Below, one piece after another: positions 698 through 47,588 of a stretch of 64,000 nt of DNA. How positions within the stretch are numbered: the first letter of the stretch is position 1; each line of letters begins with the position of its first letter. Location: contig JAYVHA010000017.1 of the NCBI GenBank assembly GCA_043771635.1, positions 36,761 through 100,760 of the forward strand, given 5' to 3'. The translations under genes were made by a program, and so were the position numbers. This stretch comes from Candidatus Woesearchaeota archaeon (GTDB lineage Archaea > Nanobdellota > Nanobdellia > Woesearchaeales > SKIA01). The notes beneath the pieces were generated by a model. It ran no database searches. It saw only the letters and a list, made by a program, of their open reading frames with translations, and was not told where the DNA came from.

Positions 698-2476
698 CTA
701 TGAGCCTTGGCTGCGCTCTACTGCAAGCCTATGCGCTTCAACATAGTATAGGATGAATGCGCTCCAATCGGTGAGCTTAGTTAACGCTTTTGCCTGCGTT
801 TTTTCCTCGTTGCGCTGGAATTTATCTTTATGAGCGAAGTTCAGTAATAGGTCAAAGAGTTCTTTGCTCGCGTCTTGATCTGATCGGCCATTGCGGTGAA
901 GTACAAACACTCCTTTACCAGCGTGAGGCTCCATAAACGCTCCAAAGCCGGCAAGGTCCGTAGTAATTGCGGGAACTCCGAAGGCCATGCCTTCAACTGG
1001 CGTGTATCCCCAAGGCTCGTAGTAACTCGGGAACACACCTAGGTGTGTGCCGGATACTGCGTCGTTGTACGTCATGTCAAGTAGGCCGTCAGAGCCAGTT
1101 AAGTAAACCGGATAAAAAATTGCCTTAACTGGATCTTGCGCGCTGTTGAATAACCCGTTTTGCCTGAACGCGGATACAATTGCATTGTTGTCTTCGTTTG
1201 GAATGTTGTGCGTGCAGAGCGGTGCGTTCCCTTCATGCTTCATGGCTTGAAACTGGCGCTGTATTGTGCGCACAAATTCCGGGCTTAGAAGTTGCTCGCA
1301 TGTGAACTCTTTAATGTTTGGAACTTCACGAAGTATTTTGCGGACAAAATCTTCATTGTTGTCTTCAACATAGTTTTTAATCGCGCTAAATACTGCTTTT
1401 TCTTCTAATAACTCGGTTTTGATTCCATGCGTTTCATTTGGAATCCAGAAAAAAGCCACAACTGTTTTTGTACTGCCTTCATCACGAAGCGCACTATTCA
1501 ACTTACCAAGTGCTTGAATAAAAACATCTATTCCTTTGTTATGAAATTCGAAGCGTCCAGTAATAAACATAATTACGGTTTCTTGCATGTCAAAAGTGTA
1601 GTGGCTGAAGAAATAGTACTCTAGGAAGTCACGAATTTTCTCTCGGTGTTTCTGGTGGAGTATGCTTGCTTCCTCGAATGTCGGAAACTTACTGTCGTCT
1701 AGACCATTTAGCGTTAGCACGTCAGGCTTGCGGCCAAGCAGCGCAGTAGCTTCCAAACCAGTAATTTCGCTTACTGTGGTAAACACGTGCGTATGCTTTG
1801 CGCATGCGCGCTCCATACTGTACTTTTCCATTATTCCAAGCTCGCGCGCCGCTTGGTCTGGATTAATTGCCGCTAGCGCCCCATAGAGTTCTCGGCCATT
1901 TGCGCAAAGCGAGCGGCCAAGCATAGTCGCGTGCGTAGTAAATACTGTGCCAACATGTTGTGTGCGCGCACGTAAATATAGAAGTGTAAAGCCGCCAAGC
2001 CATTCATGGCAATGAGCGACTGTTGGCGCAGGTAGTGTTACGCTTAGGCGCTCTATTAGTTTTCCAGCTGCCCATCCCCAGCGCAGAGGTTCATCAAATT
2101 CGTAATTTGCGTTTAGGCTGTCAACACCAAAGCGTTCCCATAATTCTTTTTTTACAGCGTTTTCATCGATGCGCTCTCTCTCTAGTTTTATTAGAATTGT
2201 AATTGGCTCTCCGCGGATTAGCCACTTGCCGTAAAGGCAACTAATTCCTTCATGCTCAAGCTCTTCAAACGCAGCCTTATACTCTGGTGGCGCCGCGAGT
2301 TGTTGAAACTCGAACTGGGCTTGATTTGCAAAGTATGGTCCGACGCAGATGTAGTTGCTGTAGCGGCGTCGAAGCAGGTCGGCCTTGCTTTTGACCACTT
2401 GGTATATGCCGCCGACTTTGTTACACACTTCCCAGCTTACTTCAAACACCGTACTTGGAGCACTTGATAATACCAT
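698..2476 (-). CDS. Glycogen synthase, eukaryote-like GT3 family
   Basis: The N-terminus 'FEVSWEVCNKVGGIYQVVKSKA...VGPY' closely mirrors the animal/fungal glycogen synthase N-terminal signature (FEVAWEVANKVGGIYTV). The ORF is 592 aa with an ATG start, 1 nt after the upstream gene's stop. Confidence 0.85.
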   Translation of the reverse strand: MVLSSAPSTVFEVSWEVCNKVGGIYQVVKSKADLLRRRYSNYICVGPYFANQAQFEFQQLAAPPEYKAAFEELEHEGISCLYGKWLIRGEPITILIKLERERIDENAVKKELWERFGVDSLNANYEFDEPLRWGWAAGKLIERLSVTLPAPTVAHCHEWLGGFTLLYLRARTQHVGTVFTTHATMLGRSLCANGRELYGALAAINPDQAARELGIMEKYSMERACAKHTHVFTTVSEITGLEATALLGRKPDVLTLNGLDDSKFPTFEEASILHQKHREKIRDFLEYYFFSHYTFDMQETVIMFITGRFEFHNKGIDVFIQALGKLNSALRDEGSTKTVVAFFWIPNETHGIKTELLEEKAVFSAIKNYVEDNNEDFVRKILREVPNIKEFTCEQLLSPEFVRTIQRQFQAMKHEGNAPLCTHNIPNEDNNAIVSAFRQNGLFNSAQDPVKAIFYPVYLTGSDGLLDMTYNDAVSGTHLGVFPSYYEPWGYTPVEGMAFGVPAITTDLAGFGAFMEPHAGKGVFVLHRNGRSDQDASKELFDLLLNFAHKDKFQRNEEKTQAKALTKLTDWSAFILYYVEAHRLAVERSQGS

Positions 2477-2477
2477 A

Positions 2478-2843
2478 TTAGTTTAGCATGGCGACAACCG
2501 CCATTACAAGAATTCCTACAATCAGACCTGTGGCAAAGCCAATCATAAAGTCTGTTCGTTGATTGTGTTTGCTGATTTCTTTGTGTGCTGCGTGGGGTGA
2601 TAGCCAATGGCGCAGCGCGGTTAAAGTTTGCTCGCGAGTTGTGGCTTCTCGAAGCCGCGCGGCAAGTGTAGGCTCTCTGAGCGCAGTGTCTGCCCACGAA
2701 GCAAAATCATTACGTGGATGCGCGCCTGTAAGCACGTGATCAGTAAAGCATGCCTCAGGACCTTCTTCAATAATTTGCAACAAATCAATTGCAGTACGTG
2801 CTGTGCGTCCATTGTGGAACGAGAAGGCATGCGGTCGTATCAT
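2478..2843 (-). CDS. Small protein with an 'RNDFAxW' domain and a C-terminal TM anchor. It may be a DUF5752-like family (from memory, unverified).
   Basis: 'FSFHNGR...DLLQII...DHVLTGAHPRNDFASWA' is paralogous to 2840..3232. The C-terminal 'FMIGFATGLIVGILVMAVVAML' is hydrophobic. There is a 4-nt overlap with the upstream gene. Confidence 0.55.
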   Translation of the reverse strand: MIRPHAFSFHNGRTARTAIDLLQIIEEGPEACFTDHVLTGAHPRNDFASWADTALREPTLAARLREATTREQTLTALRHWLSPHAAHKEISKHNQRTDFMIGFATGLIVGILVMAVVAMLN

Positions 2844-3232
2844 GTACGCTCCAAAATGATCCTGTAAATAACAACCTGTGCGTGGTGGCTGCTGCTTGCA
2901 TCTGTGATGCGCTGCGCTAGTTCAACTTCTTCAAACACATCTCGGACCCAATTAGCAAAGTCATTTCGACCTTGGTTTACGTGGTGGTTCCAAACTGCAA
3001 TGCTCATATCATCGAGCATATCAGCGAGTTCTTTCAAGTCCGCTACATTTCTGCCGTCGACCAAGTGAAACTCGCGGCCCGGTTCAGCTCGCTTTATCGG
3101 CTTCGGGTTTTTATGCAATTCACTTGTAGTTTTACTCTTAATTGCGCGCTTTACTGCAGGCTTCTTTACACTGTCTCCTGTCGGTGAAGTTCCTTCCGGA
3201 GCTATTGCCTTTGTCTTTACCAATTGTATCAC
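2840..3232 (-). CDS. Small protein with an 'RNDFAxW' domain and a Lys/Pro-rich N-terminus
   Basis: 'FHLVDGRNVADLKELADML...NHHVNQGRNDFANWV' is paralogous to 2478..2843. It has a GTG start, and an A/T-rich tract at about 3245-3265 could be its promoter. Confidence 0.5.
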   Translation of the reverse strand: MIQLVKTKAIAPEGTSPTGDSVKKPAVKRAIKSKTTSELHKNPKPIKRAEPGREFHLVDGRNVADLKELADMLDDMSIAVWNHHVNQGRNDFANWVRDVFEEVELAQRITDASSSHHAQVVIYRIILERT

Positions 3233-3284
3233 CTGATTTCTTTTTCAAATTTTTTTATTTCTCATCCGCGGTACGCGGCGGCGC

Positions 3285-4511
3285 TCAGATTGTGCTGGCT
3301 TCCTGGGCGCTAGGATTCATCTCCTCTGAGCGATTTTCAAGGCGAAGCTTCATGTCCTGAATAACGTTCATGAACGCGATGTATGCCTCGTATGGGCTCT
3401 CATATGGGCTAAAGTACTTGTGTACGTCTCCGTCTGCGAACCATTTAGTGCACATATAGTAAAAATGGTCGCTTGTTGTGAGTTTGCGCCAATCATTTAG
3501 CATTGCAGGATCGCGCGCTGCCTTAACTTGAGCTTCAAGTTTGTAGAGTTCTTTTAGGGATGCTTCTTGCATTTTATTGCCGAGCCATGCAGTAAGATCT
3601 CGCTCTGCGTCTGCCCAACTGACATAGTCGTGTGCGTCAATGCGGCCGACCGAATCATAACTCTGAACTACTTCGCTCGGAGTTTTGAAATCGTTGTCAG
3701 GGTGTTCCAAAACTGCGTGCGGGAGGTGACGCATAAAATCAAAAATTCCTGTGTCTTCCCATTGATGTTCTCCAAACGTTTCGTAGTCCATAAACAGGTT
3801 TACAGTATGTCCGTTTCCATTTACTTTGTTTAGCCAGTCGCGAAATTTGTCAACTGTCAGAGGGTGCTCTTCCCATCCTTTGTTTCCAAAACGGAATGCG
3901 ATGTCGTCTGAGAGCTTGTAATTTTTTAGGAGTGTTTTGATATCTGTTGTGTACTCTGACTGGTAAATGAAATTAGGACTTCGCCAGCCAAGCATAGCGT
4001 CCCATCCCTCAGCAATAATTCCTTTGTAGCCGAGGCTTTCAACGTGGTTTGCAAGTTCGTTATTGTAAATTAGTTCTGTGTTTCTGAATACTGTTGGGCT
4101 TTGACCGAATTCTTTCTCCATAAGCTTTCGATGCATGTTAACTTGCTCTGAGAATTCTTCTTTTGAATACAGATATGACAAAGAGTGATAGTACGTTTCA
4201 TCTAGGAACTCAACGCATCCCGTGCGCGCAAGTTCTTTAAATGACTCAAGCACTTCCGGCGCATATTCGCGGAATTGTTCAATTGCGGTTCCAGTTATTG
4301 AAAAAGCTATTTTGAATTTGCCTTTGTGGTGCCTAATTTGCTCGAGGAGCAAATTATTCATTGGTAAATAGCATTTACGAGCTACTTTGCGCGCTACTTC
4401 CGCATTTTTATGATCATCGAAGTAGTGGTGATTGTGTCCGATATCAAACATTGAGTATCGGCGTAAGCGGTATGGTTGGTGAACTTGAAAGTAGAAGCAG
4501 ACGCTGACCAT
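3285..4511 (-). CDS. Glycoside hydrolase family 57 (alpha-amylase / alpha-glucan-active enzyme)
   Basis: 'VCFYFQVHQPYRLRRY' is the characteristic GH57 N-terminal motif. The ORF is 408 aa, and its start overlaps the upstream GT stop (TGATG). Confidence 0.85.
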   Translation of the reverse strand: MVSVCFYFQVHQPYRLRRYSMFDIGHNHHYFDDHKNAEVARKVARKCYLPMNNLLLEQIRHHKGKFKIAFSITGTAIEQFREYAPEVLESFKELARTGCVEFLDETYYHSLSYLYSKEEFSEQVNMHRKLMEKEFGQSPTVFRNTELIYNNELANHVESLGYKGIIAEGWDAMLGWRSPNFIYQSEYTTDIKTLLKNYKLSDDIAFRFGNKGWEEHPLTVDKFRDWLNKVNGNGHTVNLFMDYETFGEHQWEDTGIFDFMRHLPHAVLEHPDNDFKTPSEVVQSYDSVGRIDAHDYVSWADAERDLTAWLGNKMQEASLKELYKLEAQVKAARDPAMLNDWRKLTTSDHFYYMCTKWFADGDVHKYFSPYESPYEAYIAFMNVIQDMKLRLENRSEEMNPSAQEASTI

Positions 4512-5764
4512 CAGTGCTTAACCTGCAACAACAACTCTCCATAAACTTCTTCTAGGCGCTGCGCGTATCGATCCCAAGTCATTGACTGTACTTCAATAGT
4601 GCCGTGCTCTGTTAGGTGATCAGAGAGTTCACGGTACTTTAGCACTGCAAGTATTTTGTTTGCGGTGTCCGTGGTGTCCCAGAAGTCAACTTTTAGTGCG
4701 TTGCGTAGTACTTCAGCAACTCCACTTTGTCGACTCACTATTACTGGTGTACCTTTTTGCATTGCTTCAAGCGGCACTATTCCGAATGGCTCAGAAACTG
4801 AGGGCATAACAAAGCAGTCAGCCATTGCGAAAAGCTGTTCTGCATCGTGCCTGGAGTAAAATCCTGGGAAAATAAATTTGTCAGACATTCCTAGGTCAGC
4901 TGAAAGTTCAATCATGCGGTGGAGCATGTCGCCTGTTCCTGCCATCACGAACTTAACATTCGGATCTTTGTCGAGTACCAGGCGCGCTGCTTGTACAAAA
5001 TAATCGGGCCCTTTTTGTAGCGTCACGCGACCTGCAAAGAGTACAATTTTATCCGTTGACTTTATTTTAAGTGGGCCTGCGCCTATACTGTTGTTCATTG
5101 GGGTTGCTGCATTGTGCAGTACGCGGATTTTGTGCTCTGGAATGCCGTACTGGCTTACTAGACGGTTCTTTATGTAGTCGGAAACTGCAATTATAATGTC
5201 TGCTTCTTGCATTCCATATCGCTCAATGTCGTAAGCCATTTGATTAATTTGTCCGTCGCCACCGACCATGTCGAACTGCGTTATGTGTACGTGAACAATG
5301 AGAGGTTTACCTGAGGCATGTTTTGCACCTACTGCTGCAGGGAACGTTGTCCAGTCGTGCGCGTGAATAATATCGAATTCCTCCATTTCCGCAAGCGCGC
5401 GCACGCGGATTGCATATTTATGAATCTCGTCGAATAGGTCACGTCCGTAGAGCGTACGACTCTTATCGCGATCGTCTGCAATAACCTGCTGAAGTTGCTG
5501 CACGCGCTCACTATACTCGTGTTCAGTCGTATAAGCAGTGAGCGTTGAGCGCACTGTTTTAATTTTAAGGTTAGTATACTTGCTGAGTCGGCTAGCCACT
5601 ACAAGCTTAACAAAATCACTTTCTACATGTTCTGGACCAAATGGCATAACATAGGTTATTCCGAGTCCGCGCTGGCTAAGTGCGCGAGTTAACTCGTGGC
5701 AAACCATACCAACTCCGCCCGCAAAAAACGGAGGGAATTCCCAGCCGAGTGTCAGAATGCGCAT
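4511..5764 (-). CDS. GT4/GT5-type glycosyltransferase (prokaryotic glycogen-synthase-like)
   Basis: The N-terminus is 'MRILTLGWEFPPFFAGGVGMVCHEL'. The C-terminal 'VMPSVSEPFGIVPLEAM' is the E-x7-E glycos_transf_1 motif. Confidence 0.8.
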   Translation of the reverse strand: MRILTLGWEFPPFFAGGVGMVCHELTRALSQRGLGITYVMPFGPEHVESDFVKLVVASRLSKYTNLKIKTVRSTLTAYTTEHEYSERVQQLQQVIADDRDKSRTLYGRDLFDEIHKYAIRVRALAEMEEFDIIHAHDWTTFPAAVGAKHASGKPLIVHVHITQFDMVGGDGQINQMAYDIERYGMQEADIIIAVSDYIKNRLVSQYGIPEHKIRVLHNAATPMNNSIGAGPLKIKSTDKIVLFAGRVTLQKGPDYFVQAARLVLDKDPNVKFVMAGTGDMLHRMIELSADLGMSDKFIFPGFYSRHDAEQLFAMADCFVMPSVSEPFGIVPLEAMQKGTPVIVSRQSGVAEVLRNALKVDFWDTTDTANKILAVLKYRELSDHLTEHGTIEVQSMTWDRYAQRLEEVYGELLLQVKH

Positions 5765-7485: not shown

Positions 7486-8331
7486 ATGCGCATTACACTC
7501 ACTATCAGAAAGCGGTTTGAAGAGCAAGCAGCTGAGCGGTTTGAGGCAGCAAAAAAAGCCAAACGAAAACTGGAAGGTGCGAGAGCAACAATCGTTCGTT
7601 TCGAGCGTGAACTTCCGAAAACGGTAGAAAAAGTAGTTTCAGCTGCGCGAACAAAAGCTTGGTATGAGCGTTTTCGTTGGTCGCGCGCACCAGACTCCAC
7701 GCTTCTTGTTGGAGGGCGCGATGCGGGTACAAACGAAGTCCTGCTAAAGCGGCATCTTGAGCTGGATGATTTGGTGGTTCACACCGATGACCCTGGCAGC
7801 CCATTCGTACTCATTAAAGGAGGAGCTAAACTTACTGAGGAAAAAGCAAGCGCGGCATGTGCGGCAGCCGGGCAGTTATGTGCTGCGTACAGCCGCGCTT
7901 GGAAGCGAGGATCGTCTGTAAGTGATGCGTTTTGGGTAACTGCAGAGCAAGTGTCGAAAACTGCGAATGCTGGTGAATACATTGGCCGTGGTGCGTTTAT
8001 GATTCGCGGCGAGAAGCGGCCAATCAGCGCGAAAGTAGCAATTGCACTCGGGCGGCTTGATGACACTCCAGCGTGCGGCGTGTCGGAAATATTTAGTGGA
8101 ATCTACGCGCTAGTCGTGCCGGGCGACGAGAAGTCAAGTGATGTTGCTAAAAAGTTAGTTAAACGCCTCGGCGGAGTGCCGGACGACTGGGTTCCGCTAA
8201 TTCCCCCGGGAGGCTCAGTAATTCAAGGTTGGAAGCGTGGCTCAGGAGTTCGCGCCGAGACAAGCACTGGCGAGGGTTTATCTACTAATGAGACAGGAGA
8301 AGAGCTTGCGGCAAAGCCAGCAGCAAAATAG
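7486..8331 (+). CDS. NFACT-R (DUF814) domain protein, a short Rqc2/FbpA-family relative
   Basis: 'RFRWSRAPDSTLLVGGRDAGTNEVLLKRHLELDDLVVHTDDPGSPFVLIKG' matches the DUF814 core pattern. TATA 'ATAATATA' at 7457-7464 is centred 25.5 nt upstream of the start. Confidence 0.65.
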   Translation: MRITLTIRKRFEEQAAERFEAAKKAKRKLEGARATIVRFERELPKTVEKVVSAARTKAWYERFRWSRAPDSTLLVGGRDAGTNEVLLKRHLELDDLVVHTDDPGSPFVLIKGGAKLTEEKASAACAAAGQLCAAYSRAWKRGSSVSDAFWVTAEQVSKTANAGEYIGRGAFMIRGEKRPISAKVAIALGRLDDTPACGVSEIFSGIYALVVPGDEKSSDVAKKLVKRLGGVPDDWVPLIPPGGSVIQGWKRGSGVRAETSTGEGLSTNETGEELAAKPAAK

Positions 8332-8459: not shown

Positions 8460-10157
8460 GTGCTAGCTCGCCTCCTGCTTAGAGCACGCGATTACTCCAT
8501 GAGCGACACAGAGCACGCAACGCCGGAAGGAATGGGTGGAGCAGATGCTACGGGTTCTTGGGCGCCCGGAAAGGCTTCTTTTGTTACGAATGGAATGCTC
8601 GAAGCAGAGCAGCTTCTAGTAATGTACGGGTTCGTTAACAAAGAAGGGCAGGAATTCTATGATAAAAGTATCAAGGGAAAAAAGGAATCATTGCGCCGTC
8701 AAGCAGTAATGAACTTAGGCACTGAGAAATGTAAACAGTTTGCAGCTACTGAGCGAAGTGAAATAGTAGATAAGATATGGGACTCCACTGGCTATCCTGG
8801 ATCCTGTCGCCGTTATCATCTGGTACTCGAGAGTGCTACTGAAGGAATTGAAGACTCGTACTATGATGTACTTGAGCGCTGCCGTACATACTTCGGTTTT
8901 AGTATTGTACATAAGGTAACTGACTACTTTGCGGCAACTGAAAACAGTGCATTCTTTGGTAACAGTCAACAGCGACTTGGTCTACAGCAGGACCGTGTGC
9001 AACAGTTTCTTGGCAACATTGGAAAGTTTGTCAAGGAGCTCTTTCAAATGGTTCGCGAACTTCGCATTATCGACGAGCGTCTTGCAGCGTACGAAGCCGC
9101 AGGCGGAATTGGAAGTAAGCAGGAGAAAACCCCTGATTCAAAGTTTCATCATAGTGCCGCTGCGGACGTAAGCATGAAAAGTATTTTTACTGACGTAGTC
9201 GAGGGCGGGACTAAAAATCCACAAAGTGTTTTCGGCCTCGCGCAGCAAGTAGGTTTTACACTCCTTCCGGACTTGTTCTTTAATGAGTATGTTGCGAAGC
9301 CAGATGATATTGATGCGCGCATTGATGCGCTTCCGTATAACAAAAACGTTAAGACTGTTCTTAAGAGAAAGCTGCAACAATATCTTACTTGGAAGCAGCA
9401 CACATACATGGAACTTATGACTCGCCGTAGGTTTAATCTAAAATATATTCGTCAGCACTGGACAATAATCCGCATGTATATGGCGTGGGTAAAACCGTAC
9501 TTAAAGAACATTCAGCGCTTGACAATGAATCAAAAGTTTCAGGACAGCCCCGATTTAATTTCTGCGTTTGAAGGAAGTGTAATTGAAGTAGAGTTTGTCG
9601 CAGCAAAACCAGCAAATGGAGGATTTCACTCAGTTATTTTAGCGTCGTTTGTGTTCCGCACTAGGCCTGACATGAGTTCTCGAAAGGAATACCAAACTGG
9701 TCCTATGCACTTAGGCCGCATGGATATGAACTTACGCGCTTACGGTTGGACTCCTGAACAACTACAAGCGTATCGTGACATGAAGCGCCGCGAAGACATT
9801 GAACTACTTGGGCTTATTGATACTCAACTTACTGATGTCATGGATGGCCTCGGTATGGAGTTCGAGCGTTATCTGATTGAAGCAGGTGAAGATGCCATAG
9901 AAAAGGAACCTGAAAAGAAAGATGAGAAGCATAAGACAAAGCTCCGTGACACTGCTATCGGGCCTTTTATCGATATTCTGTATGGCTTTAAGGACTTAGG
10001 AGAAGCGTTCATCCCGTCTTCACTTTTCTCGTCAGGCGGCGAACACAGCCATAGCTCAGGTGGAGGCAATAACAAAAATGCACTAAAGGATGCGACTGGT
10101 AGTGCATTTCTTGTGTACAATACTTATAAGAAGAGCCGCCGCATGATTACTTGGTAG
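8460..10157 (+). CDS. Hypothetical 565-aa protein with no recognisable motif
   Basis: Long uninterrupted ORF. The start is GTG at 8460 or ATG at 8499. A 'TTTAAAAA' TATA-like box lies at 8409-8416, and a T8 run follows the stop. Confidence 0.6.
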   Translation: MLARLLLRARDYSMSDTEHATPEGMGGADATGSWAPGKASFVTNGMLEAEQLLVMYGFVNKEGQEFYDKSIKGKKESLRRQAVMNLGTEKCKQFAATERSEIVDKIWDSTGYPGSCRRYHLVLESATEGIEDSYYDVLERCRTYFGFSIVHKVTDYFAATENSAFFGNSQQRLGLQQDRVQQFLGNIGKFVKELFQMVRELRIIDERLAAYEAAGGIGSKQEKTPDSKFHHSAAADVSMKSIFTDVVEGGTKNPQSVFGLAQQVGFTLLPDLFFNEYVAKPDDIDARIDALPYNKNVKTVLKRKLQQYLTWKQHTYMELMTRRRFNLKYIRQHWTIIRMYMAWVKPYLKNIQRLTMNQKFQDSPDLISAFEGSVIEVEFVAAKPANGGFHSVILASFVFRTRPDMSSRKEYQTGPMHLGRMDMNLRAYGWTPEQLQAYRDMKRREDIELLGLIDTQLTDVMDGLGMEFERYLIEAGEDAIEKEPEKKDEKHKTKLRDTAIGPFIDILYGFKDLGEAFIPSSLFSSGGEHSHSSGGGNNKNALKDATGSAFLVYNTYKKSRRMITW

Positions 10158-10216: not shown

Positions 10217-11092
10217 ATGTCCGGTTCCACCCACTCTGAATCAAAAAAAGCTCGGGAAGCGGCAGCTCCAGTAGTAACTACTAATTCCTTATCTGTCAAA
10301 CTTGCTGCTTCTAAACCTGCCTCTGTTATGCCTACCTCTGTCATGCATACCTCTGTCATGCCTGCTATTCCAATACCTGCTCCTAAGCCCGACTTAGCGT
10401 CTATTGCAGCGACAAGCAGCTCAACAAATATTCCTGCGCAGCTGCTAGCGTCTATGTTGTCTAGGTTACGTCATGATAAGGAATCACAATTACACAGTCA
10501 ATGGGATGCGCATCGAAAGCAAGTTGATGAAGCTGACGCTACTGCGCGCCAGGATGTGCTAATTTCCGCGCTTAAACGCGCAGAACAGGAAGAGCAAACG
10601 GTCAATGCGCAAACTGCATTAGAAACTGCGGTCCAGCGTGCACAAGCAAGCATGAACTCGCAGCAACAAGACACTATTCGTGAGGGCGCGCTGCGTGCAC
10701 GTTTGCAAGAATTTAGAGGAAGCGATGACGAAAGTGTAAGTGAGCGCCTGCGCAAAGAAGGTTTTGGGGACGCGCTCACTGAAAACAAGCTGCGGGAGAG
10801 AACGCTTGATCAACGCGTTGGAAACGAACTAGGGCTCAGGCCCGGTCAGGAATTTAGTCGCGGACCTGAAAAACTTTACACGCAAGATTCAGTGAGCGAG
10901 CGGGGTGAGTCGCAGCCTTACATGCGCAGCGAAGACTCTATGTATAATTCTGCTTCGGTTGATCCGACGCGCGGTGGTAGTGGTTCTGCTAACGCTTATG
11001 AACGCGCGCGCGACAAGGACGCAGAAGATGGAGTTCGCAAAGGCCTCGGGCTTGATATTGAATTAGGTTTATCTTACGGCCGCTCAAAATAG
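10217..11092 (+). CDS. Hypothetical low-complexity / coiled-coil protein
   Basis: The N-terminus is Ser/Ala/Pro-rich with a 3 x 5-aa repeat (SVMP/SVMH). The middle is Q/E/R-rich and helical. A TATA-like 'CTTAAAGC' lies about 27 nt upstream. Confidence 0.5.
   Translation: MSGSTHSESKKAREAAAPVVTTNSLSVKLAASKPASVMPTSVMHTSVMPAIPIPAPKPDLASIAATSSSTNIPAQLLASMLSRLRHDKESQLHSQWDAHRKQVDEADATARQDVLISALKRAEQEEQTVNAQTALETAVQRAQASMNSQQQDTIREGALRARLQEFRGSDDESVSERLRKEGFGDALTENKLRERTLDQRVGNELGLRPGQEFSRGPEKLYTQDSVSERGESQPYMRSEDSMYNSASVDPTRGGSGSANAYERARDKDAEDGVRKGLGLDIELGLSYGRSK
10320..10364 (+). repeat. 3 x 15-bp tandem repeat inside the CDS
   Basis: The units are cctctgttatgccta / cctctgtcatgcata / cctctgtcatgcctg. 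Confidence 0.8.
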
Positions 11093-11260: not shown

Positions 11261-13342
11261 ATGGCGATGGGTTACATGAGTCCTGGTATGAATGCGATGG
11301 ATCGCGACTACTACTCGCGCATGCTGACGCGCCTTGACGCGTTCGGCCCGGTAATGAACCCGGTGAATAACCACGAGGGTGCAATAACGACTGGCCTCGG
11401 CCCTCGCGAACTCGGTACTACAATCAATCCGTTTCAACCACAAATTCAAGCGCTTCAAGCAAAAATTCGCGAAGGTGCGTCACGTTTAGAAATCGGTTTC
11501 GGCGGAGTCGGCAAAGGCAACTCACAGCAGCAGACGCCGGAAGCGTATGGCAGAGTTGAGCGCGAAGTCTTGCGCGAACTCGCTGTGTATAACGAAGTCA
11601 AGACTTCAACGCACGCGTCTTTTCAACTTGCAGGTTTAGCAGGTTTTGGCCGCGAAGGCTTCTCAAAGCAAGCGCAGCAAACAGTGCTTGAGGAAGTGCG
11701 CAAAGCAATTGACTTTGCAAGCGAAGCGACGACAGGCGGCGCAGTCGTCGTGCACACGGGCGAGTGGGCGCGTCCGATAAGCGAAGCGCCATGGGCTAAA
11801 GACTACAACATGAAAGACGGGCGCCCTGCATACTTAGGTTATGGGGACGAAGACAAAAAAGCGGAGTTACCCGTAGTCGACGCACGGACAGGTCAAATTG
11901 TCGGAGGCATTCGTAAGGATCAAGAAATCTATGAACCAAAGTGGATTCTTGCCAAAGACTATGAGGTTGAAAGCAAAAAGAAATTGTCTGGCCGCGACTT
12001 ACAAGGTAAGCCTACGACTTACAAACCTAATGATTTTGTGGATTTGGATGGTAATAAGCTTAATCCTGATAAACCTGATGAAATGTTCAGACGGCTTCCT
12101 GCTTGGGATGCGGTCAATACTAGATTTAAAGTCGAACCTGTAACTTGGGACACTTTAGTAGCGCGAGCGAAAGAGTTTAATGAATCTCATCCTAATGCAA
12201 ATATACGCCCGGAAGTATTGTATGCGAAGTTACAAATTGAGAATCAAGCTCTGCAGCAAAGAGGAGCATCTCTGTTCCATACGCAGCGATATGAGGCTGA
12301 GCGAAGTCGATATTACTCAGCAAAAGACAGGCTTGCTGCGGCGGAAAGAGGAGAGATTTCAGCTATACCTCCAGAGCTTATTGAGCAAGCCGCACAGGCT
12401 GGTCGCGTTAAAGATGAAACTGATCTGAAGAAATTACTTCCGGATGCTCAAAGATTTTTGAAGCAAGAAATGGATGGCCATGAGCGTTCTATGCGACATA
12501 CACACGAATCGTCTTCAGCGGCTGACGTACAGGCGGAAACTCTTCTAGCGCGCGCGTCCAAATTAGAAACAATGGAAGAGTACGGCTTAAAGCAAAGCGG
12601 CGCAGCAATTGCTGAACTTGCCGAGCACGCGCGCGCAAAAACCCAGAAGATGATGGCGGATGTCAAAGCGCGCGGCGGCGACCTCTCGAAGTTCTCAAAG
12701 ATTTACATAGCGCCTGAAAACGTGTTTACGGAGCAGTACGGCAGTCACCCGGATGAACTAATGAACATTGTAAAGGCTGGCCGCGACCAGTTTGTTGAGA
12801 ACATGAAAAAGAAAGGTCTCAGCGAGTCGGAGGCGCGCAAGGAAGCCTCGGAGCACATCAAAACTACAATCGACATCGGCCATCTAAACATGTGGCGAAA
12901 ACACTTGCGGCGCTTTGACGGAGAAGATGACGCTGCGTTCGACAAGCGCTTTGAAACTTGGACGATGGGCAAAGTCGAGGAGATGCACAAGAAAGGCATG
13001 ATCGGCCACATTCACTTAACCGACAACTTAGGTTACAATGACGAACACTTGTCTCCGGGTCAAGGCAACGCGCCGATTCGCGCGTTTGTTAAACGTCTTG
13101 CGGAGCTAGGCTATGATGATTTTATTTCAGAGATTGGCTCGTTTAACTCAGGAACTATTTTGAGCGACACTTGGACTTACCTTGGCGCGGAGCACTACAA
13201 GCGCGGTTCCGCGTTCGGCAGCACCCAGTTCAAAGATCTCCAGTCAAGACACTTCGGCAGCTATGCGCCGCCAATGTTTATTTATGGCGCTTACTCTCCA
13301 AGCAATGAATTCACGCTCTGGAGCCAAGTGCCGCTCGAGTAA
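11261..13342 (+). CDS. Endonuclease IV / xylose-isomerase-like TIM-barrel protein with a large internal insertion
   Basis: The ordered motifs are 'STHAS' (H118), 'VVVHTGEW' (H165), 'YIAPEN' (E486), 'IDIGHL' (D538/H541), 'GHIHLTDN' (H585), 'NDEHLSPGQGNAPI' (D594/H596) and 'ISEIG' (E624). These parallel the nine Nfo metal ligands. The H165-E486 gap is 321 residues, versus 36 in E. coli Nfo. Confidence 0.7.
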   Translation: MAMGYMSPGMNAMDRDYYSRMLTRLDAFGPVMNPVNNHEGAITTGLGPRELGTTINPFQPQIQALQAKIREGASRLEIGFGGVGKGNSQQQTPEAYGRVEREVLRELAVYNEVKTSTHASFQLAGLAGFGREGFSKQAQQTVLEEVRKAIDFASEATTGGAVVVHTGEWARPISEAPWAKDYNMKDGRPAYLGYGDEDKKAELPVVDARTGQIVGGIRKDQEIYEPKWILAKDYEVESKKKLSGRDLQGKPTTYKPNDFVDLDGNKLNPDKPDEMFRRLPAWDAVNTRFKVEPVTWDTLVARAKEFNESHPNANIRPEVLYAKLQIENQALQQRGASLFHTQRYEAERSRYYSAKDRLAAAERGEISAIPPELIEQAAQAGRVKDETDLKKLLPDAQRFLKQEMDGHERSMRHTHESSSAADVQAETLLARASKLETMEEYGLKQSGAAIAELAEHARAKTQKMMADVKARGGDLSKFSKIYIAPENVFTEQYGSHPDELMNIVKAGRDQFVENMKKKGLSESEARKEASEHIKTTIDIGHLNMWRKHLRRFDGEDDAAFDKRFETWTMGKVEEMHKKGMIGHIHLTDNLGYNDEHLSPGQGNAPIRAFVKRLAELGYDDFISEIGSFNSGTILSDTWTYLGAEHYKRGSAFGSTQFKDLQSRHFGSYAPPMFIYGAYSPSNEFTLWSQVPLE

Positions 13343-18399: not shown

Positions 18400-19314
18400 G
18401 TGGAATTTCCGATTGAGCGCCCGCCATCACCAGTGGACAGGTCGTCGCCCTCAGGATTAGGTATTAAGCACTCGGACGACGACCGCACAACTGCGTACGC
18501 GTTTGCTGCTAAACTTTATCGTGAGTTGGGAAAGCTATGCCGAGCAATAGTCTTGTTCGGCAGTGTAGCTGAGCGCGACCCTCGAGACTTACACGATCCT
18601 CATCGCGATCACAATCATGGTCCTGTTACGCCTGCAGGCGACATAGACATACTAGTCGTGCTTGATGACGTCGGCGTAGTACTAACCGACGAACTGATAA
18701 CTGGCTACCGTGTTATTGGTGAGCAGTGCGCGCGCGACGTTGGCGGGCGCATCCACATTACCACGGTGACGTTTACGACGTTTTGGGAATATGCGCGCGT
18801 TGCGGACCCAGTAATGGTAAACGTGCTACGCACAGGATTGCCTCTAATTGATACTGGTTTTTTCGAACCTATGCAAATTTTGCTGCGGCAAGGTCGTATT
18901 CGCCCAACTGAAGAGTCGGTTTGGGTTTACTACCTTCGCGCTCCTCAAAGCCTAGCGTCGAGCCAAGGTCGGTTGCAGCAAGCTGTGCTCGACTTGTACT
19001 GGGCGTGCATTGACGCAGCGCACGCTGCCGTTATGGCTGCAGGTGAAGTACCGACGAGCCCGCGCCACGCGGCGGATTTACTTCGGTCACTGTATGTGGA
19101 GCGAGGATTACTTGAAGAGCAGTACGCGCAGACGCTTGAGCATTTCTACCAGCTTGGAAAAGACGTTATGCATCGCCGTGTTGGCGCAATTTCGGCAGAA
19201 TATTACGATCAATTGTACGCGCAAGCAAAAGCATTTGTGGACCGTATCCGTGCCTTTTTGCCTGCGCGCCACGGTTCAATTAATCACTCTGACGACAAGC
19301 CAGGCTTAATTTAG
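18400..19314 (+). CDS. Pol-beta-superfamily nucleotidyltransferase with a helical C-terminal domain
   Basis: 'VLFGSVAERD...GDIDILVVLDD' is a GS...D.D NTase motif interrupted by a His/Asp-rich loop. 'ADPVMVNVLRTGLPLIDTGFFEP' is paralogous to 37920..39782. The start is GTG, with 'CTATAAAAG' about 27 nt upstream. Confidence 0.65.
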   Translation: MEFPIERPPSPVDRSSPSGLGIKHSDDDRTTAYAFAAKLYRELGKLCRAIVLFGSVAERDPRDLHDPHRDHNHGPVTPAGDIDILVVLDDVGVVLTDELITGYRVIGEQCARDVGGRIHITTVTFTTFWEYARVADPVMVNVLRTGLPLIDTGFFEPMQILLRQGRIRPTEESVWVYYLRAPQSLASSQGRLQQAVLDLYWACIDAAHAAVMAAGEVPTSPRHAADLLRSLYVERGLLEEQYAQTLEHFYQLGKDVMHRRVGAISAEYYDQLYAQAKAFVDRIRAFLPARHGSINHSDDKPGLI

Positions 19315-25410: not shown

Positions 25411-25959
25411 ATGCTTGCCATCTCTGAACTTAGGCGACGGCGCATTCATCTTGGACTCACGCAGCATGACCTTGCAAAACTTGCCGGCCTAAGTCAAAGC
25501 CTTGTAGCTAAAATGGAAGCGGGTGCAATCGATCCGCGCTATTCAAGTGTAATCAAGATAGAACAAGCACTAGCAGGTGCGGAAAACGCGCGTGCCTCGC
25601 CATTAAGTTCAGTAATGCGCCGCGGCGTTGTTGGCGCGCGCCGTGATGAAAAACTCTCCGTTGCGCTCTCGCGTATGCGCGCAGCGGGTTTTAGTCAATT
25701 GCCTATTCTTGACGGTGACGCGGCAGTGGGCCTTCTTACGGAAGCCGGTGCACTCGACGCGCTTGCGGCAGGAAAAAATTTGGCAGCGCTGCGCGTGTCT
25801 GAAGTCGCCGACGCGCCACCGCCAGTGTTGCCAGGCAACACACCTTTACTTGTTGCGGTGCGCGTGCTTGAATCAGTTCCCTTAATTCTTGTTCGCGATG
25901 GCAAGAAACTTGTAGGTGTGGTTACTCGCAGTGACGTGCTAGGCTCTGTTCATCATTAG
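25411..25959 (+). CDS. XRE-type HTH regulator fused to a CBS-domain pair
   Basis: '[25 protein letters not shown]' is the HTH. The CBS-like segments include '[17 protein letters not shown]' and '[20 protein letters not shown]'. Confidence 0.8.
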
Positions 25960-27131
25960 TCCTTATGCGCTGGAGCTGACTTAACTGCGGCAACAAGTGC
26001 TTGCAATCGCGGCGTTTGCTCCCATGCGAATTCATTTCGACCAAAGTGTCCGTACGCCGCAGTTGTTTGATACTGTGGTGCGCGCAAATTTAGCGCTATT
26101 GTAATTGCATGAGGGCGTAAGTCAAAAGTTGCAAGTACTCCATGCTCGATTGACTCGATAGGCGCGGTTTCGGTGCCGAATGTTTCAACGTGCACACCTA
26201 CTGGCGCCGCAACGCCGATAGCGTAGCTTATTTGCACTTCGCAACGCCGCGCAAGTTTTGCTGCGACAATGTGCTTTGCTATCCAGCGTGCTGCATACGC
26301 GGCGGATCGGTCAACTTTTGAGGGATCTTTGCCGCTAAATGCGCCGCCGCCGTGACGACCTACGCCGCCGTATGTATCAACTATTATTTTTCTTCCGGTG
26401 AGGCCTGTGTCGCCATGCGGACCTCCAATTACGAAGCGTCCGGTTGGGTTACAATGTATTTCTGTTTTTGCGTCCAAATACTTTCCGCAAACTGGAATAA
26501 TGATGTGCTTGCGCACTTCGTCCCTCACATGATCAATACTAACTGATTCTCGGTGCTGAGTGCTCACTACTACTGCTGCGATGCGCACAGGAGTCTCGCC
26601 TCTGTATTCAACAGTTACTTGCGCTTTGCCATCGGGACCGAGGAACGGAAGTGTTCCATCTTTTCTGAGAATTGCAAGGCGGTGCGTGAGCTTGTGTGCC
26701 AGAACAATCGGCAGTGGCATGAGTTCAGTAGTCTCGTTGCACGCATAGCCGTACATTAACCCTTGGTCGCCCGCGCCCTGCTCATCCTCGTGCGCGCGGT
26801 CGACGCCTTGCGCGATGTCTGGGCTTTGTGCGTGCAGTGCGCTGAGTACTGTTGCTTCATCTGCAACGAACCCTAGTGCTGATTCGGTGTAACCAATTTC
26901 GCGCACGACTTTGCGAGCGATTGCAGTTGCATCCACTTGTCCTTTGCTGCTGACTTCACCTGCAATAACAAGAAGGCCTGTTGTTGCGAGGCATTCCACC
27001 GCAACGCGAGAGTTTGGATCCTGCGTCAGGTACGCGTCAAGAATCGCGTCGCGCACTTGGTCGCAAAGTTTGTCTGGATGGCCTTCAGTAACGCTCTCAC
27101 TTGTAACTAGAAATGGTCTATGGTCTGTCAT
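25956..27131 (-). CDS. metK: S-adenosylmethionine synthetase, bacterial/eukaryotic MetK type
   Basis: '[27 protein letters not shown]' and '[23 protein letters not shown]' are canonical MetK motifs. Confidence 0.95.
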
Positions 27132-30817: not shown

Positions 30818-33800
30818 ATGCAGTACTATAGTGGTTCGCAGTCGGCTAAGCCTCTCCTGCTAGTTTGCTCCTTAATTTTTCTTATTGCTTTGGTAATCCC
30901 GGGCGCTACGGCTGTCGCTAAAATAACTGCTATAGAGTACGAAGGAACCGGACTTGTAAAAGTCGGCACACAGTACTTCATTATTCCTGACACTGTGGTT
31001 GATGGTGTACTACGCTTCACCGTTGATGAAGACACAACTGCATTAGTTATTGACATTGCTGGCCTTGATCAACGCTTAACTGATTCTTTGGCAAATACAA
31101 TTTCTACGAACCGTTGCGAAGAAAATGTATGTTCAATTCCAGTTGAATTCTTTGCAAAGAAGGGTTCTACTAAGAAACTAAGTTGGACTTGGGCTGACGT
31201 TGGCGGGCGCGCGAACACTGTTACTTCTACCATAGGGTTTGATACTGTGGCGCCGAAGCTTGATACAATCGGCACTGGTACTTGCAAAGTCGATTGTGCA
31301 GTTAAATCTGGCTCGAACGTTATTGTTGCGTATTTTACTGAAGCGGGACTCGGAATGAATCCTGCCACGACTAAATTAATCACTCCTGATGGTACAGTTT
31401 CTGCAACGTCGTGCGAGCGCGTGTCGTGTAAATTTAATGTTGAGTTAACGACAGGTGCGGAGGGCGATGTTGAATTTTCAATTGACCCCGTGTCAACAGA
31501 CCGAGCAGGGAATAAGGTTACTGGCGCCGATAAAAAATTCAATTTAGTAGTTGATAATGTAAAGCCGCGTATTCTTGGGATTACCGTTAAGCAGGGCAGC
31601 TCTGTAGTTCCAATTATTACTGGACCATTTACAGTTGCTATTAAAGTAAGTGACGAGTCTGCAGTTACTGGGTTTATTGATGCACGCGATGTTACTGGCT
31701 CCGCGGAAAAAGTAGAATTGAAATGTGCAAATGGGACTTGTCAGGCAGAGCTGAAACCAAAACTTGCACAAGGCGCAAAAACTGTATCTATAAGTATTGT
31801 TGATGCTGCCGGTAACACCGAATCCGCGGAGCGCACGGTTTCCATTGCGCGCCTTGTTGATGGAACGCCTGGAACTTATAGTACCACTGTTAAGATGTCG
31901 CCGGACACGATTGATGTAAACGCAGCTTCTTTGTTTACTACGAAAACGTTTATGGAAGTCAGTTTAATTCCGGAAGAAGGCGGTGAAGTTGCGTTTGTTC
32001 GCGCTACTAAGTGCGGGTTTAAAGTTGGAACACAGAACGCGCCACTAGCATTGCAGCAAACTGCACCTACAATTTTTGGTGCTTCAACTGATACACCTGT
32101 GCTTGCTTTGAACATCAAACCAATCGGCACGAATCTCGATGCGCGCTCTGGTACATTAATAATTACTTGCGAGCTTGAAGTGCGCTCTTACTCTAATGGT
32201 GAACTACTCAAGAACGCAACCAAAGTTAATGCAACAGGTCGTTTGCAAATAATTTCTAATCCGCTCGCGCCGGCAAAAGTAAAGGTATTGCAGAAAGAGG
32301 CGGCTGAACGTCAATTGAAGATTGACAAGGCTATTGGTGGAATAAACAAAGCTTATTCAGCAGGTCGAACGTTCTGCGAGCTTTATCAAACTGGACACCA
32401 AGTTCAGTCTGTCCTCGGCGGGGTAACAAGTACATTCGCAGGTATAGGAAATTTCTGGGCGCCGGCAAAGATTGTTGCGCGAGGTGCGGAGCAAGGAGGA
32501 AAGGCTATAGCGAAACCCATGGCTAAATTAGAAAAGGCAAACAACGGTAAAAAGTTCTGCAACATGCTCACTTGCAGTGCGCCAGGATTAGCCAATGAAC
32601 AAATTAGTGACTTCATGACTTTCGGTCTAGATGGAAATAACAATAAAGGTCGATCTGACAAAATTGCTAAATTTATGACAGGGGACAATAACGGAAATTC
32701 AAATGCATTCTTAGATCCTTACAAGTCGCTGCCAATTGCTTTAACTCAAGCATGCGTGCCTGCTGTCATGCACCACCTTAACACGTGGCGAAGCATCGAA
32801 TGTTCATACTCTCAGTGCATACAAAAAGACGTTCCAACAGGAGTGCCAGTAACTGTTTGTAGACAAGAGCGTCAATTCCAGCTATGTACAAAAGTAACTG
32901 GATCAGTGTTTTACATTACGCCATTTGGCGCTTTGCAAATGCTACGGGACCGCGTTGTAAAGTATTTGTCGGATCCAGTACTGCAGGGGTCTTTGATAAT
33001 TTATGAGAGTTGCTTTAAGTTAAGCGAGGGAAATGAAGCAGCCATGGTTGCAAGTGGTTCATGCCGCTTGTACCGCGGTATAAAAAATGCTAATAATTAT
33101 GCGCAATCCGTAAGCGGCATAGTTCAGGCAGCTAAGGCTTTCCAATCTCCAAAAGATTGCACTGTTTCCACGGCGTTTGAAGACCCGTACTTCAACCAAG
33201 CAGACCCTGAAGCATACTGCACCTCAAGCTTCTGTACTTCAGGGCCGTACGTTGGATATCCTGCAAGTACAACAACAGGCTTTGAATCAGGAGGTAAGGA
33301 TCAGGAAGATATTCCTATTGTAGAAATAAAGACACAGTACGCTGTTATTGTTCCGCAGAGCGGCAGTCCTAGTAACAATGCAAATCAAGTAAAAGCAGCT
33401 GGTGGTTCATTATTGGATCGAGATGAGCAGAAGCGTGTGGCAGCAACAATTACTGATCCGAAAGTTCGAGCAGAATTCGAAAAAGGCACTATAGCATTTA
33501 TGAAAGTTGATGAGAAAGTTGTAGCTGCTGATCATCGTGAAAACATAGCCCGAGGAGTAAGTCAAATTGCAGCTAATACCGAACTGTTCAAAGACAGTAA
33601 TGCGATGAAGGACATACAGGACAAAATTGATACTAATCGAGCTGAAATAGCGAAGCTTAAAGCGCCGCAAGCAACTCCTGATATTAAATTACCTGATCCT
33701 AAAACGATAGCTATTAGCGATTCGGTTGTAGGTAGCACGCAGCCAGTAATTAATACACGAGGCTTCCCAGTGTTTGCTGTGCCTAAACCTGAAGAAGTTA

Positions 33801-47558: not shown

Positions 47559-47588
47559 GCAGTAGTTATTTTGTGGTTATTTATAATC

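What the first reader, a model, noticed from the sequence alone, without database searches (positions are those of the whole stretch)
11261..13342. Endonuclease IV-type metal site preserved but split by an insertion of about 285-300 residues
All nine positions equivalent to the E. coli Nfo Zn ligands appear in order. H69 corresponds to 'STHAS' (H118) and H109 to 'VVVHTG' (H165). E145 corresponds to 'IAPEN' (E486), and D179/H182 to 'IDIGH' (D538/H541). H216 corresponds to 'HIHLTD' (H585), D229/H231 to 'NDEH' (D594/H596), and E261 to 'ISEIG' (E624). The stretch 'HLTDN...DEHLSPGQGNAPI' parallels Nfo 'HLNDA...DRHHSLGEGNIG'. The spacing H165->E486 is 321 residues versus 36 in Nfo. So a roughly 285-residue, largely helical and charged module (about nt 11768-12700, including 'MDGHERSMRHTHESSS') is inserted between barrel strands, and there is also a ~70-residue N-terminal extension. 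I know of no described Endo IV or xylose-isomerase-fold protein with this architecture.
Basis: partly seen in the sequence, partly recalled or inferred. Interest (0 to 1): 0.75.

Follow-up and report, generated by a model that had tools for sequence, protein, structure and literature searches.

The report
Split Endo IV-like barrel enzyme, Woesearchaeota

Summary
ORF 11261-13342 (+, 693 aa) passes Pfam's threshold for the xylose-isomerase-like TIM barrel (PF01261). All nine endonuclease IV (Nfo) metal-ligand equivalents are present in order; seven are invariant in 52/52 homologues and two nearly so. Unbiased profile comparison places residues 57-179 and 480-625 collinearly on one 277-aa MJ1311-type barrel, so 300 residues replace 23. 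AlphaFold2 (pLDDT 87, pTM 0.83) gives a canonical eight-strand order, with the insert in the beta4-alpha4 loop on the catalytic face.

It is not an artefact. The family has 578 clusters at 50% identity, occurs in at least 332 species labelled mainly Woesearchaeota/Nanoarchaeota, and keeps the insert in the members examined.

It is not a canonical Nfo: no nfo model matches. Its nearest relatives, the uncharacterised MJ1311 group, score at least as well against sugar epimerases and the cobamide phosphodiesterase CbiR as against Nfo. The most likely function is a three-metal phosphodiesterase, with substrate unknown and nucleic acid favoured.

An unannotated ~500-aa partner lies upstream in 77 of 80 assessable loci.

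Verdict: new variant of a known kind, moderately interesting.

The parts
11261..13342 (+). Whole gene: 693-aa TIM-barrel protein with internal insertion (stop codon 13340-13342)
   Evidence: ORF list. PF01261 at 47.5 bits against a cutoff of 31.1, in two stretches. An identical protein is seen on 4 contigs, and 93 further homologues were found, nearly all full-length.
11261..11404 (+). N-terminal tail, residues 1-48: predicted disordered, with a semi-conserved Y..MDR.YY motif
   Evidence: pLDDT below 50 for residues 1-39. The motif is visible in family N-termini. The barrel alignment begins near residue 49.
11405..11776 (+). Barrel N-half, residues 49-172 (beta1-beta4). Ligand codons H118 = 11612-11614 and H165 = 11753-11755. 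Invariant E168 and R171 follow beta4.
   Evidence: Strands 51-54, 75-79, 114-118 and 161-165 alternate with helices. Residues 57-179 align with MJ1311-type 14-113. H118 and H165 are 52/52.
11777..12145 (+). Insertion part 1, residues 173-295: beta-rich subdomain, the most length-variable part (66-141 aa across the family)
   Evidence: DSSP strands 202-207, 212-218, 223-226 and 291-294, with pLDDT above 90. Length range. Some family members skip roughly profile positions 200-270. No Pfam family covers it.
12146..12571 (+). Insertion part 2, residues 296-437: long-helix module (helices 296-309, 317-341, 344-362, 393-432)
   Evidence: DSSP. Only low-probability coiled-coil matches in PDB and BFVD. 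No homology to the partner or middle-gene families.
12572..13195 (+). Barrel C-half, residues 438-645 (alpha4 to alpha8). Ligand codons: E486 12716-12718, D538 12872-12874, H541 12881-12883, H585 13013-13015, D594 13040-13042, H596 13046-13048, E624 13130-13132.
   Evidence: Helix 438-470, then strands 482-486, 535-538, 581-586 and 621-623. Residues 480-625 align with MJ1311-type 137-245 at E 1.6e-13. PDB sequence match to 3WQO at E 6e-10. Ligand conservation.
13196..13339 (+). C-terminal tail, residues 646-693: predicted disordered but conserved, ending in PSNE[WF].LWS.VPLE
   Evidence: pLDDT below 50. Mean conservation of 0.51 approaches that of the barrel at 0.58. The motif is visible across the family.
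8460..10157 (+). Conserved partner gene (565-aa ORF; the database protein P0095 has 552 aa, which would start at M14, nt 8499). No known family or fold.
   Evidence: Found upstream of the barrel gene in 77 of 87 loci, which is 77 of 80 assessable; same strand in 73. At least 874 homologues. No Pfam, NCBIfam, PHROG or PADLOC hit. AF2 pLDDT 76 with no PDB fold match.
10217..11092 (+). Small low-complexity gene (291 aa) between partner and barrel gene; a positional analogue of a charged ~213-aa family present in 64 of 87 loci
   Evidence: Position and composition. The cluster-2 family is described. The window protein is not detected by that family's HMM, so homology is unproven.
18400..19314 (+). 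Minimal nucleotidyltransferase-like gene (304 aa). Its family lies immediately downstream of the barrel gene in most of the 46 loci that have it, but is displaced ~5 kb in this window.
   Evidence: Cluster 3 occurs in 46 of 87 loci, on the same strand in 40. The family HMM hits this ORF at E 1e-108. Weak Polbeta/NTP_transf_2 and MntA-like matches.

Best explanation
The gene encodes a complete (beta-alpha)8 xylose-isomerase-like TIM barrel of the Endo IV/MJ1311 type. It most likely binds three divalent metal ions through H118, H165, E486, D538, H541, H585, D594, H596 and E624, and hydrolyses a phosphoester bond by Endo IV-like three-metal chemistry. A 265-300-residue module, made of a beta-rich subdomain plus a long-helix bundle, is inserted in the beta4-to-alpha4 loop. 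That places it on the catalytic face of the barrel, right after ligand H165 and the invariant E168 and R171. I infer that this module acts as a substrate-selecting cap or arm and possibly as an assembly element. I also infer that the enzyme works with the co-encoded ~500-aa partner, perhaps docking through its conserved disordered tails. The substrate is unknown. I favour a nucleic-acid backbone or 3' end (about 0.4) over a small-molecule or lipid phosphodiester (about 0.25). Shown: the fold family, the ligand conservation, the insertion site, the family size and the gene linkage. Inferred: metal binding, phosphodiesterase activity, the role of the insertion, complex formation and the substrate.
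For: PF01261 passes its curated cutoff. The nine ligand positions are invariant or nearly so. The barrel profile matches the MJ1311 group at 99.7%, E 5e-25, and that group matches Nfo at 95.9%, E 6e-9, with the ligand motifs aligned. Uncut profiles give two collinear halves. The AF2 model is confident and has canonical strand order. Foldseek returns only superfamily members at high probability, including Endo IV and giant-virus AP endonucleases. The full nine-ligand set separates Nfo, the MJ1311 group and this family from sugar-isomerase-like relatives, which keep 5-8 of the nine. The characterised enzymes of this superfamily that act as phosphodiesterases are Endo IV and CbiR (PMC2770678, PMC7733943). 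The partner is linked in 77 of 80 assessable loci, and a nucleotidyltransferase-like gene lies downstream in 46 of 87.
Against: No NCBIfam nfo or CbiR model matches the protein or its barrel-only constructs; the only direct curated hits are weak sugar-epimerase matches over beta7-beta8. The position equivalent to Nfo's DNA-inserting Y72 is variable (F/V/P/I/Y). The protein is mildly acidic and the insertion is not basic. No DNA-repair gene is a conserved neighbour. The bridging relative MJ1311 is itself uncharacterised. Ligand geometry was not measured.
Confidence: 0.45

Rival explanations
1. It is the lineage's true AP endonuclease and 3'-repair diesterase: a functional Endo IV whose insertion clamps DNA or recruits repair partners, replacing canonical Nfo or ExoIII in reduced Woesearchaeota genomes. 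This is a narrower version of the best explanation.
For: The nine-ligand signature is complete. MJ1311 is listed as the predicted Endo IV homologue of M. jannaschii, and the divergent archaeal PF0258 (13.5% identical to Nfo) is a verified AP endonuclease (PMC2770678). No other Endo IV-like gene occurs in the 64-kb window. The gene is widespread in the lineage, in at least 332 species.
Against: No nfo model hit. The Y72-equivalent position is not conserved. The insertion is acidic to neutral. There are no repair genes nearby. Absence of canonical nfo or xth from whole genomes was not tested.
Confidence: 0.22
2. It is a phosphodiesterase for a non-nucleic-acid substrate, by analogy with CbiR, which cleaves the cobamide nucleotide loop. 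Candidates are a cofactor, a lipid head group or a glycan phosphodiester scavenged from a host, with the insertion forming the binding pocket.
For: MJ1311-type relatives match the CbiR model over its full length at E 1.4e-18, better than they match nfo at about 1e-11. CbiR shows that this superfamily acts on non-DNA phosphodiesters (PMC7733943). The insertion is not basic. DPANN archaea depend on scavenging (general knowledge).
Against: The CbiR model does not match this family directly. No cobamide, lipid or cofactor genes are conserved neighbours. The CbiR match of the MJ1311 group is below that model's cutoff (67 bits against 105).
Confidence: 0.23
3. It is a sugar or sugar-phosphate isomerase/epimerase, as some automated annotations say, using one or two metals, with the extra histidines being structural.
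For: The only direct curated hits are fructoselysine 3-epimerase, hydroxypyruvate isomerase and IolO-like models. The top Foldseek PDB matches are ketose 3-epimerases. The invariant E77 on beta2 is shared with isomerase-like relatives but not with Nfo. A phosphoglucose isomerase gene sits between partner and barrel gene in locus L002. Glycogen-metabolism genes lie upstream in the window.
Against: Those hits are weak (14-29 bits against cutoffs near 300) and restricted to beta7-beta8. The five ligands that sugar epimerases lack (H118, H165, H541, D594, H596) are invariant or nearly so here. The PGI neighbour occurs in one locus only.
Confidence: 0.1
4. The architecture is an artefact: a mis-assembly, a fusion of two ORFs, or a mobile insertion such as an intein inside a normal barrel gene.
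For: None beyond the unusual length.
Against: There is a single uninterrupted ORF. The identical protein occurs on 4 contigs and homologues are nearly all full-length. Most of the best 150 of 578 clusters match across the whole profile, insert included. At least 332 species carry a relative. The insert is predicted with pLDDT above 90. No intein or transposase family was detected.
Confidence: 0.01

Closest known systems
MJ1311 of Methanocaldococcus jannaschii (PDB 3WQO, deposited as an uncharacterised protein) and its relatives
   Same: It is the closest solved relative by sequence (E 6e-10). The whole barrel aligns at 99.7% probability. It has the same nine ligand positions and shares the H.H..DN.GY.DEH...G.GN block and the glutamate on beta2.
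   Different: MJ1311-type proteins are plain 263-328-aa barrels. They lack the ~277-aa insertion, the N- and C-terminal tails and the partner gene. Their function is also unknown.
Endonuclease IV (E. coli Nfo, PDB 1QTW; archaeal PF0258)
   Same: Same TIM-barrel superfamily. All nine three-metal ligands sit on the same strands in the same order.
   Different: No significant direct sequence match and no nfo model hit. The H-to-E spacing is 321 residues against 36. The Y72-equivalent is not conserved. A beta2 glutamate is present that Nfo lacks. DNA activity is untested.
CbiR cobamide-remodelling phosphodiesterase (Akkermansia muciniphila; NCBIfam NF041277)
   Same: Same superfamily, with conserved metal-binding His, Asp and Glu residues, and it hydrolyses a phosphoester bond. 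It is one of the two best curated-model matches of the bridging MJ1311 group.
   Different: CbiR has no insertion and its model does not match this family directly. CbiR homologues are encoded next to cobamide biosynthesis genes, and none are conserved neighbours here.
Ketose 3-epimerases and related sugar isomerases (D-tagatose and D-psicose 3-epimerase, fructoselysine 3-epimerase, hydroxypyruvate isomerase)
   Same: Top Foldseek PDB matches and the only direct curated-model hits. They share the E-D-H-E core ligands and the beta2 glutamate.
   Different: By established knowledge of these enzymes they use one metal with four ligands. In one search the sugar-isomerase-like relatives keep only 5-8 of the nine positions, whereas all nine are conserved here. 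They have no insertion.

Membership tests
Xylose isomerase-like TIM barrel superfamily (Pfam PF01261, AP_endonuc_2) | Score above Pfam's gathering threshold | tested here: met
   47.5 bits against a cutoff of 31.1, E 2.5e-12, in two stretches. Precomputed PF01261 is listed for 93 of 94 homologues.
Xylose isomerase-like TIM barrel superfamily (Pfam PF01261, AP_endonuc_2) | One complete (beta-alpha)8 barrel | tested here: met
   AF2 pLDDT 87 and pTM 0.83, with eight strands alternating with helices in canonical order. Both halves are collinear with a 277-aa barrel. Coordinates were not inspected.
Endonuclease IV (Nfo) family | Nine ligands of the trinuclear metal site (H69, H109, E145, D179, H182, H216, D229, H231, E261) | tested here: met
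   All nine equivalents are present. Seven are 52/52, D594 is 50/52 and E624 is 51/52.
Endonuclease IV (Nfo) family | Match to curated Nfo models (TIGR00587, NF002196-8) | tested here: not met
   No nfo model was reported for the full protein at E up to 0.1 or for eight barrel-only constructs at E up to 1. No Endo IV chain was found in the PDB profile search at E up to 1.
Endonuclease IV (Nfo) family | Ligands converge on one three-metal site in 3D | not testable with these tools
Endonuclease IV (Nfo) family | DNA-intercalating or recognition residues (for example Y72 after H69) | tested here: inconclusive
   The equivalent position 121 is F19/V17/P6/I4/Y3 across the family, so it is hydrophobic but not conserved. 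Other DNA-contact loops could not be mapped reliably.
Endonuclease IV (Nfo) family | AP-endonuclease or 3'-diesterase activity | not testable with these tools
   This needs a biochemical assay.
CbiR cobamide-remodelling phosphodiesterase | Match to NF041277 and adjacency to cobamide biosynthesis genes | tested here: not met
   No NF041277 hit for this family; only the MJ1311 group matches it, and below its cutoff. No cobamide genes appear among recurrent neighbours.
Ketose 3-epimerase / sugar-phosphate isomerase families | Score above the curated equivalog cutoffs | tested here: not met
   Best scores are 14-29 bits against cutoffs of 300-353, covering only beta7-beta8.
Known anti-phage defence systems (PADLOC) | Any component matches a defence-system model | tested here: not met
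   No hit for the partner, the middle gene, the barrel protein or the 252-aa downstream ORF.

The most novel reading that the evidence does not exclude
The insert-bearing barrel enzyme, the ~500-aa partner of unknown fold and the small charged protein form a multi-subunit phosphodiesterase machine specific to Woesearchaeota/Nanoarchaeota. In this reading the coiled-coil arms come from the insertion and from the partner, and the conserved disordered tails act as docking motifs. The machine would carry out a core nucleic-acid repair, processing or host-scavenging task by a mechanism not seen in other archaea.
Probability: 0.2. Interest if true: 0.8.

Novelty: new variant of a known kind. Interest (0 to 1): 0.55.

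Why it matters
DPANN archaea such as Woesearchaeota are abundant, uncultivated symbionts with small genomes, and most of their lineage-specific proteins have no known function. This is a large family: 578 clusters at 50% identity and at least 332 species. Its catalytic site is recognisable and invariant, which gives a concrete and testable biochemical handle. A ~280-residue domain inserted in a beta-alpha loop on the catalytic face is also an unusual case of TIM-barrel elaboration. If the enzyme proves to be the lineage's AP endonuclease, it would suggest how base-excision repair is handled in these reduced genomes. If it acts on another phosphodiester, it would extend the reach of Endo IV-type three-metal chemistry, as CbiR did. 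The tightly linked partner has no known fold, which hints at an undescribed complex.

Tried and rejected
- Direct hhalign of the family profile against the single Nfo sequence was too weak to stand alone (E 0.03-0.05), so I bridged through the MJ1311 group.
- HMMER profile search against PDB found only MJ1311 significantly and no Endo IV.
- Foldseek E-values were all above 1e-3 because the insertion breaks the alignment. I used them only to show that nothing outside the superfamily matches.
- My last homologous-protein search, on a 56-aa MJ1311 fragment, returned nothing. I recovered the gene through genome contigs instead.
- Barrel-only constructs against NCBIfam gave no nfo or CbiR hit.
- The partner's fold search found nothing significant. 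PHROGs and PADLOC were empty for the module.
- I tested whether the insertion derives from the partner or the middle protein; it does not.
- The window's 291-aa gene is not detected by the middle-gene family HMM.
- The nucleotidyltransferase neighbour gave only weak MntA-, KNTase- and PolX-like matches, which do not identify a substrate.
- An intein or mobile-element origin of the insert is rejected: no such domains were found and the insert is conserved in the family members examined.
- Literature searches for DPANN or Woesearchaeota with PF01261, AP endonuclease or 3WQO found nothing relevant.
Full report
**1. The observation**

The window has a single uninterrupted ORF at 11261..13342 (+) of 693 aa. 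Pfam assigns it to PF01261, the xylose-isomerase-like TIM barrel (AP_endonuc_2), at 47.5 bits against a gathering score of 31.1, in two stretches.

I aligned 52 family members that are 30-64% identical to the query. Mean column identity is 33% and only 29 columns are invariant. In that alignment seven of the nine positions are 52/52, D594 is 50/52 and E624 is 51/52. That is far more than chance would give.

**2. Equivalence to the Nfo ligands**

Direct hhalign of the family profile against this one sequence is weak (E 0.03). It nevertheless pairs D538, H541, H585, D594, H596 and E624 with D179, H182, H216, D229, H231 and E261.

The closest solved relative by sequence is MJ1311 (PDB 3WQO), at E 6e-10. 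I recovered MJ1311 orthologues and relatives from genome contigs. A barrel-only family profile (residues 40-172 plus 436-645) aligns with that group at probability 99.7%, E 5e-25, over 253 columns. The MJ1311 group in turn aligns with Nfo at 95.9%, E 6e-9. The ligand-bearing motifs line up in both alignments.

To avoid bias from my cut points I repeated the comparison with the uncut alignment. Residues 480-625 match MJ1311-type 137-245 (E 1.6e-13), and residues 57-179 match 14-113 (E 5.7e-6). So 300 residues stand where the plain barrel has 23, a net insertion of about 277. The H165-to-E486 interval is 254-344 residues across the family.

The full nine-ligand set is not a general property of the superfamily. 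It is complete in Nfo, in the MJ1311-like group and in this family, but sugar-isomerase-like relatives keep only 5-8 of the nine.

**3. Structure**

AlphaFold2 on the 52-sequence alignment gives mean pLDDT 87.3 and pTM 0.83. Strands lie at 51-54, 75-79, 114-118, 161-165, 482-486, 535-538, 581-586 and 621-623, alternating with helices in the canonical (beta-alpha)8 order. The ligands sit on strands beta3 to beta8 and on the loop after beta7, as in Nfo.

Helix 438-470 immediately precedes beta5 and is the alpha4 equivalent. Structurally, therefore, the insertion (about residues 173-437) lies in the beta4-to-alpha4 loop. By the established geometry of TIM barrels that loop is on the catalytic face. 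It starts right after ligand H165 and the invariant E168 and R171.

The insert has two parts: a beta-rich subdomain (about 173-295, whose length varies from 66 to 141 aa in the family) and a long-helix module (296-437). Residues 1-39 and 645-693 are predicted disordered. The C-terminal tail is nonetheless conserved and ends in PSNE[WF].LWS.VPLE.

Foldseek finds only superfamily members at high probability. These are ketose 3-epimerases, xylose isomerase, S. aureus Endo IV and giant-virus AP endonucleases, and all have E above 1e-3 because the insert breaks the alignment. The helices draw only generic coiled-coil matches. I could not access model coordinates, so ligand convergence in three dimensions remains untested.

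**4. Not an artefact, and a large family**

The identical protein is seen on four contigs, and 93 further homologues, nearly all full-length, were found. An exhaustive profile search finds 578 representatives at 50% identity with E up to 1e-30 (815 at 1e-10). Most of the best 150 are about 560-770 aa and match across the whole profile including the insert. A few shorter ones (471-541 aa) match from their first residue or stop early and look like truncated gene calls.

A scan of GTDB species representatives with a single peptide pattern found 332 loci. Those listed are labelled Woesearchaeota, Nanoarchaeota or Nanoarchaeia, apart from several bins whose labels look wrong. Sources call these proteins hypothetical, TIM barrel protein or sugar phosphate isomerase/epimerase. 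I found no paper on them.

**5. Gene context**

I examined 87 loci. A ~500-aa protein family with no Pfam, NCBIfam, PHROG or PADLOC match lies upstream in 77 of them, on the same strand in 73. Seven of the ten exceptions have under 1.1 kb of upstream sequence, so the figure among assessable loci is 77 of 80.

- The window copy of this partner is 8460-10157. Its AF2 model (pLDDT 76) has two beta-sheet modules and very long helices, and it has no significant PDB match.
- Between partner and enzyme there is usually a ~213-aa highly charged protein (64 of 87 loci). The window's 291-aa gene holds that position but is not detectably homologous.
- A ~269-aa minimal nucleotidyltransferase-like gene follows the enzyme in 46 of 87 loci. 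In the window it is displaced to 18400-19314.
- A YhbY gene, an RqcH-like NFACT-R gene and a Na+/H+ exchanger gene recur further upstream.
- No DNA-repair gene is a conserved neighbour, no known defence system matches, and the window contains no second Endo IV-like gene.

**6. Function**

The invariance of all nine ligands argues for a working three-metal site, and so for phosphoester hydrolysis as in Endo IV. The superfamily also contains CbiR, a phosphodiesterase that cleaves cobamides (PMC7733943). MJ1311-type proteins score 7.9e-19 against the fructoselysine 3-epimerase model and 1.4e-18 against the CbiR model, compared with about 1e-11 against nfo models; all of these are below the curated cutoffs. 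MJ1311 is listed only as a predicted Endo IV homologue, whereas the archaeal protein PF0258 is experimentally verified (PMC2770678).

This family itself matches no nfo or CbiR model. Its only direct curated hits are weak epimerase matches over beta7-beta8. The Y72-equivalent position varies, and the insertion is not basic.

I therefore commit to a three-metal phosphodiesterase whose insertion and partner handle the substrate, with confidence 0.45. Nucleic acid is the favoured substrate, and a CbiR-like non-nucleic substrate and a sugar isomerase/epimerase role are the rivals.

**7. Comparison, novelty and verdict**

The protein is a member of the PF01261 superfamily. It is not a member of the canonical Nfo family, because the model-match criterion is not met, although it carries Nfo's ligand signature. 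The architecture is a barrel split by a ~277-aa two-part module at beta4/alpha4, with conserved tails and a dedicated partner. I found no description of this in the searched literature, and the closest relatives lack it.

I rate it a new variant of a known kind, with interest 0.55. It is a solid, testable lead into DPANN biology and TIM-barrel evolution rather than a categorically new system.

Noticed in passing
window 8460-10157 (+): A large unannotated protein family (at least 874 homologues, Woesearchaeota/Nanoarchaeota) with no Pfam, NCBIfam, PHROG or PADLOC match and no PDB fold match. The AF2 model shows two beta-sheet modules plus helices 48 and 62 residues long. It is tightly linked to the barrel gene.
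   Followed up: partly
window 13196-13339 (residues 646-693) and 11261-11404 (residues 1-48): The predicted-disordered termini carry conserved motifs: N-terminal Y..MDR.YY, and C-terminal FG..APP.Y.VG.Y.PSNEW.LWS.VPLE at the extreme end. These may be docking motifs. The C-terminal motif does not fit a canonical PIP box.
   Followed up: partly
window 18400-19314 (+) and 37920-39782 (+): Two paralogues of a minimal nucleotidyltransferase-like family (E 1e-108 and 3e-50 to the family HMM). In other genomes this family sits directly downstream of the barrel gene. The second copy is embedded in a 620-aa protein.
   Followed up: partly
window 30818-35722 (+) and 35723-37846 (+): Two adjacent very large ORFs (1634 and 707 aa) with no Pfam or PADLOC match.
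   Followed up: no
window 7486-8331 (+): A 281-aa protein that matches only the C-terminal part (positions 381-644 of 645) of the archaeal RqcH ribosome-rescue model, with an NFACT-R_1 domain. Short versions of similar size recur upstream of the module in other loci.
   Followed up: no
window 25956-27131 (-): The S-adenosylmethionine synthetase matches the three-domain Pfam set PF00438/PF02772/PF02773. From my own knowledge that set is typical of bacterial and eukaryotic MetK rather than the archaeal-type enzyme, so a horizontal acquisition is possible.
   Followed up: no
window 698-5764 (-): A glycogen/alpha-glucan gene cluster: a PF05693 glycogen synthase (592 aa), a GH57 enzyme and a GT4/GT5 glycosyltransferase. 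The GH57 and GT4 genes are syntenic with the P0013 locus.
   Followed up: no
L002 6559-7947: In one distant locus a phosphoglucose isomerase gene (462 aa) occupies the slot between partner and barrel gene that the small charged protein usually fills.
   Followed up: no
loci L009, L024, L026, L064 and others; protein P0141: Several public bins carrying this Woesearchaeota-type module are labelled Methanosarcinales, Alphaproteobacteria, Bacteroidota or Methanobacteriota. These are probably taxonomic mislabels or mis-binned contigs.
   Followed up: no
window 46338-48797 (-): Two tandem M29 (thermophilic metalloprotease) aminopeptidase paralogues.
   Followed up: no
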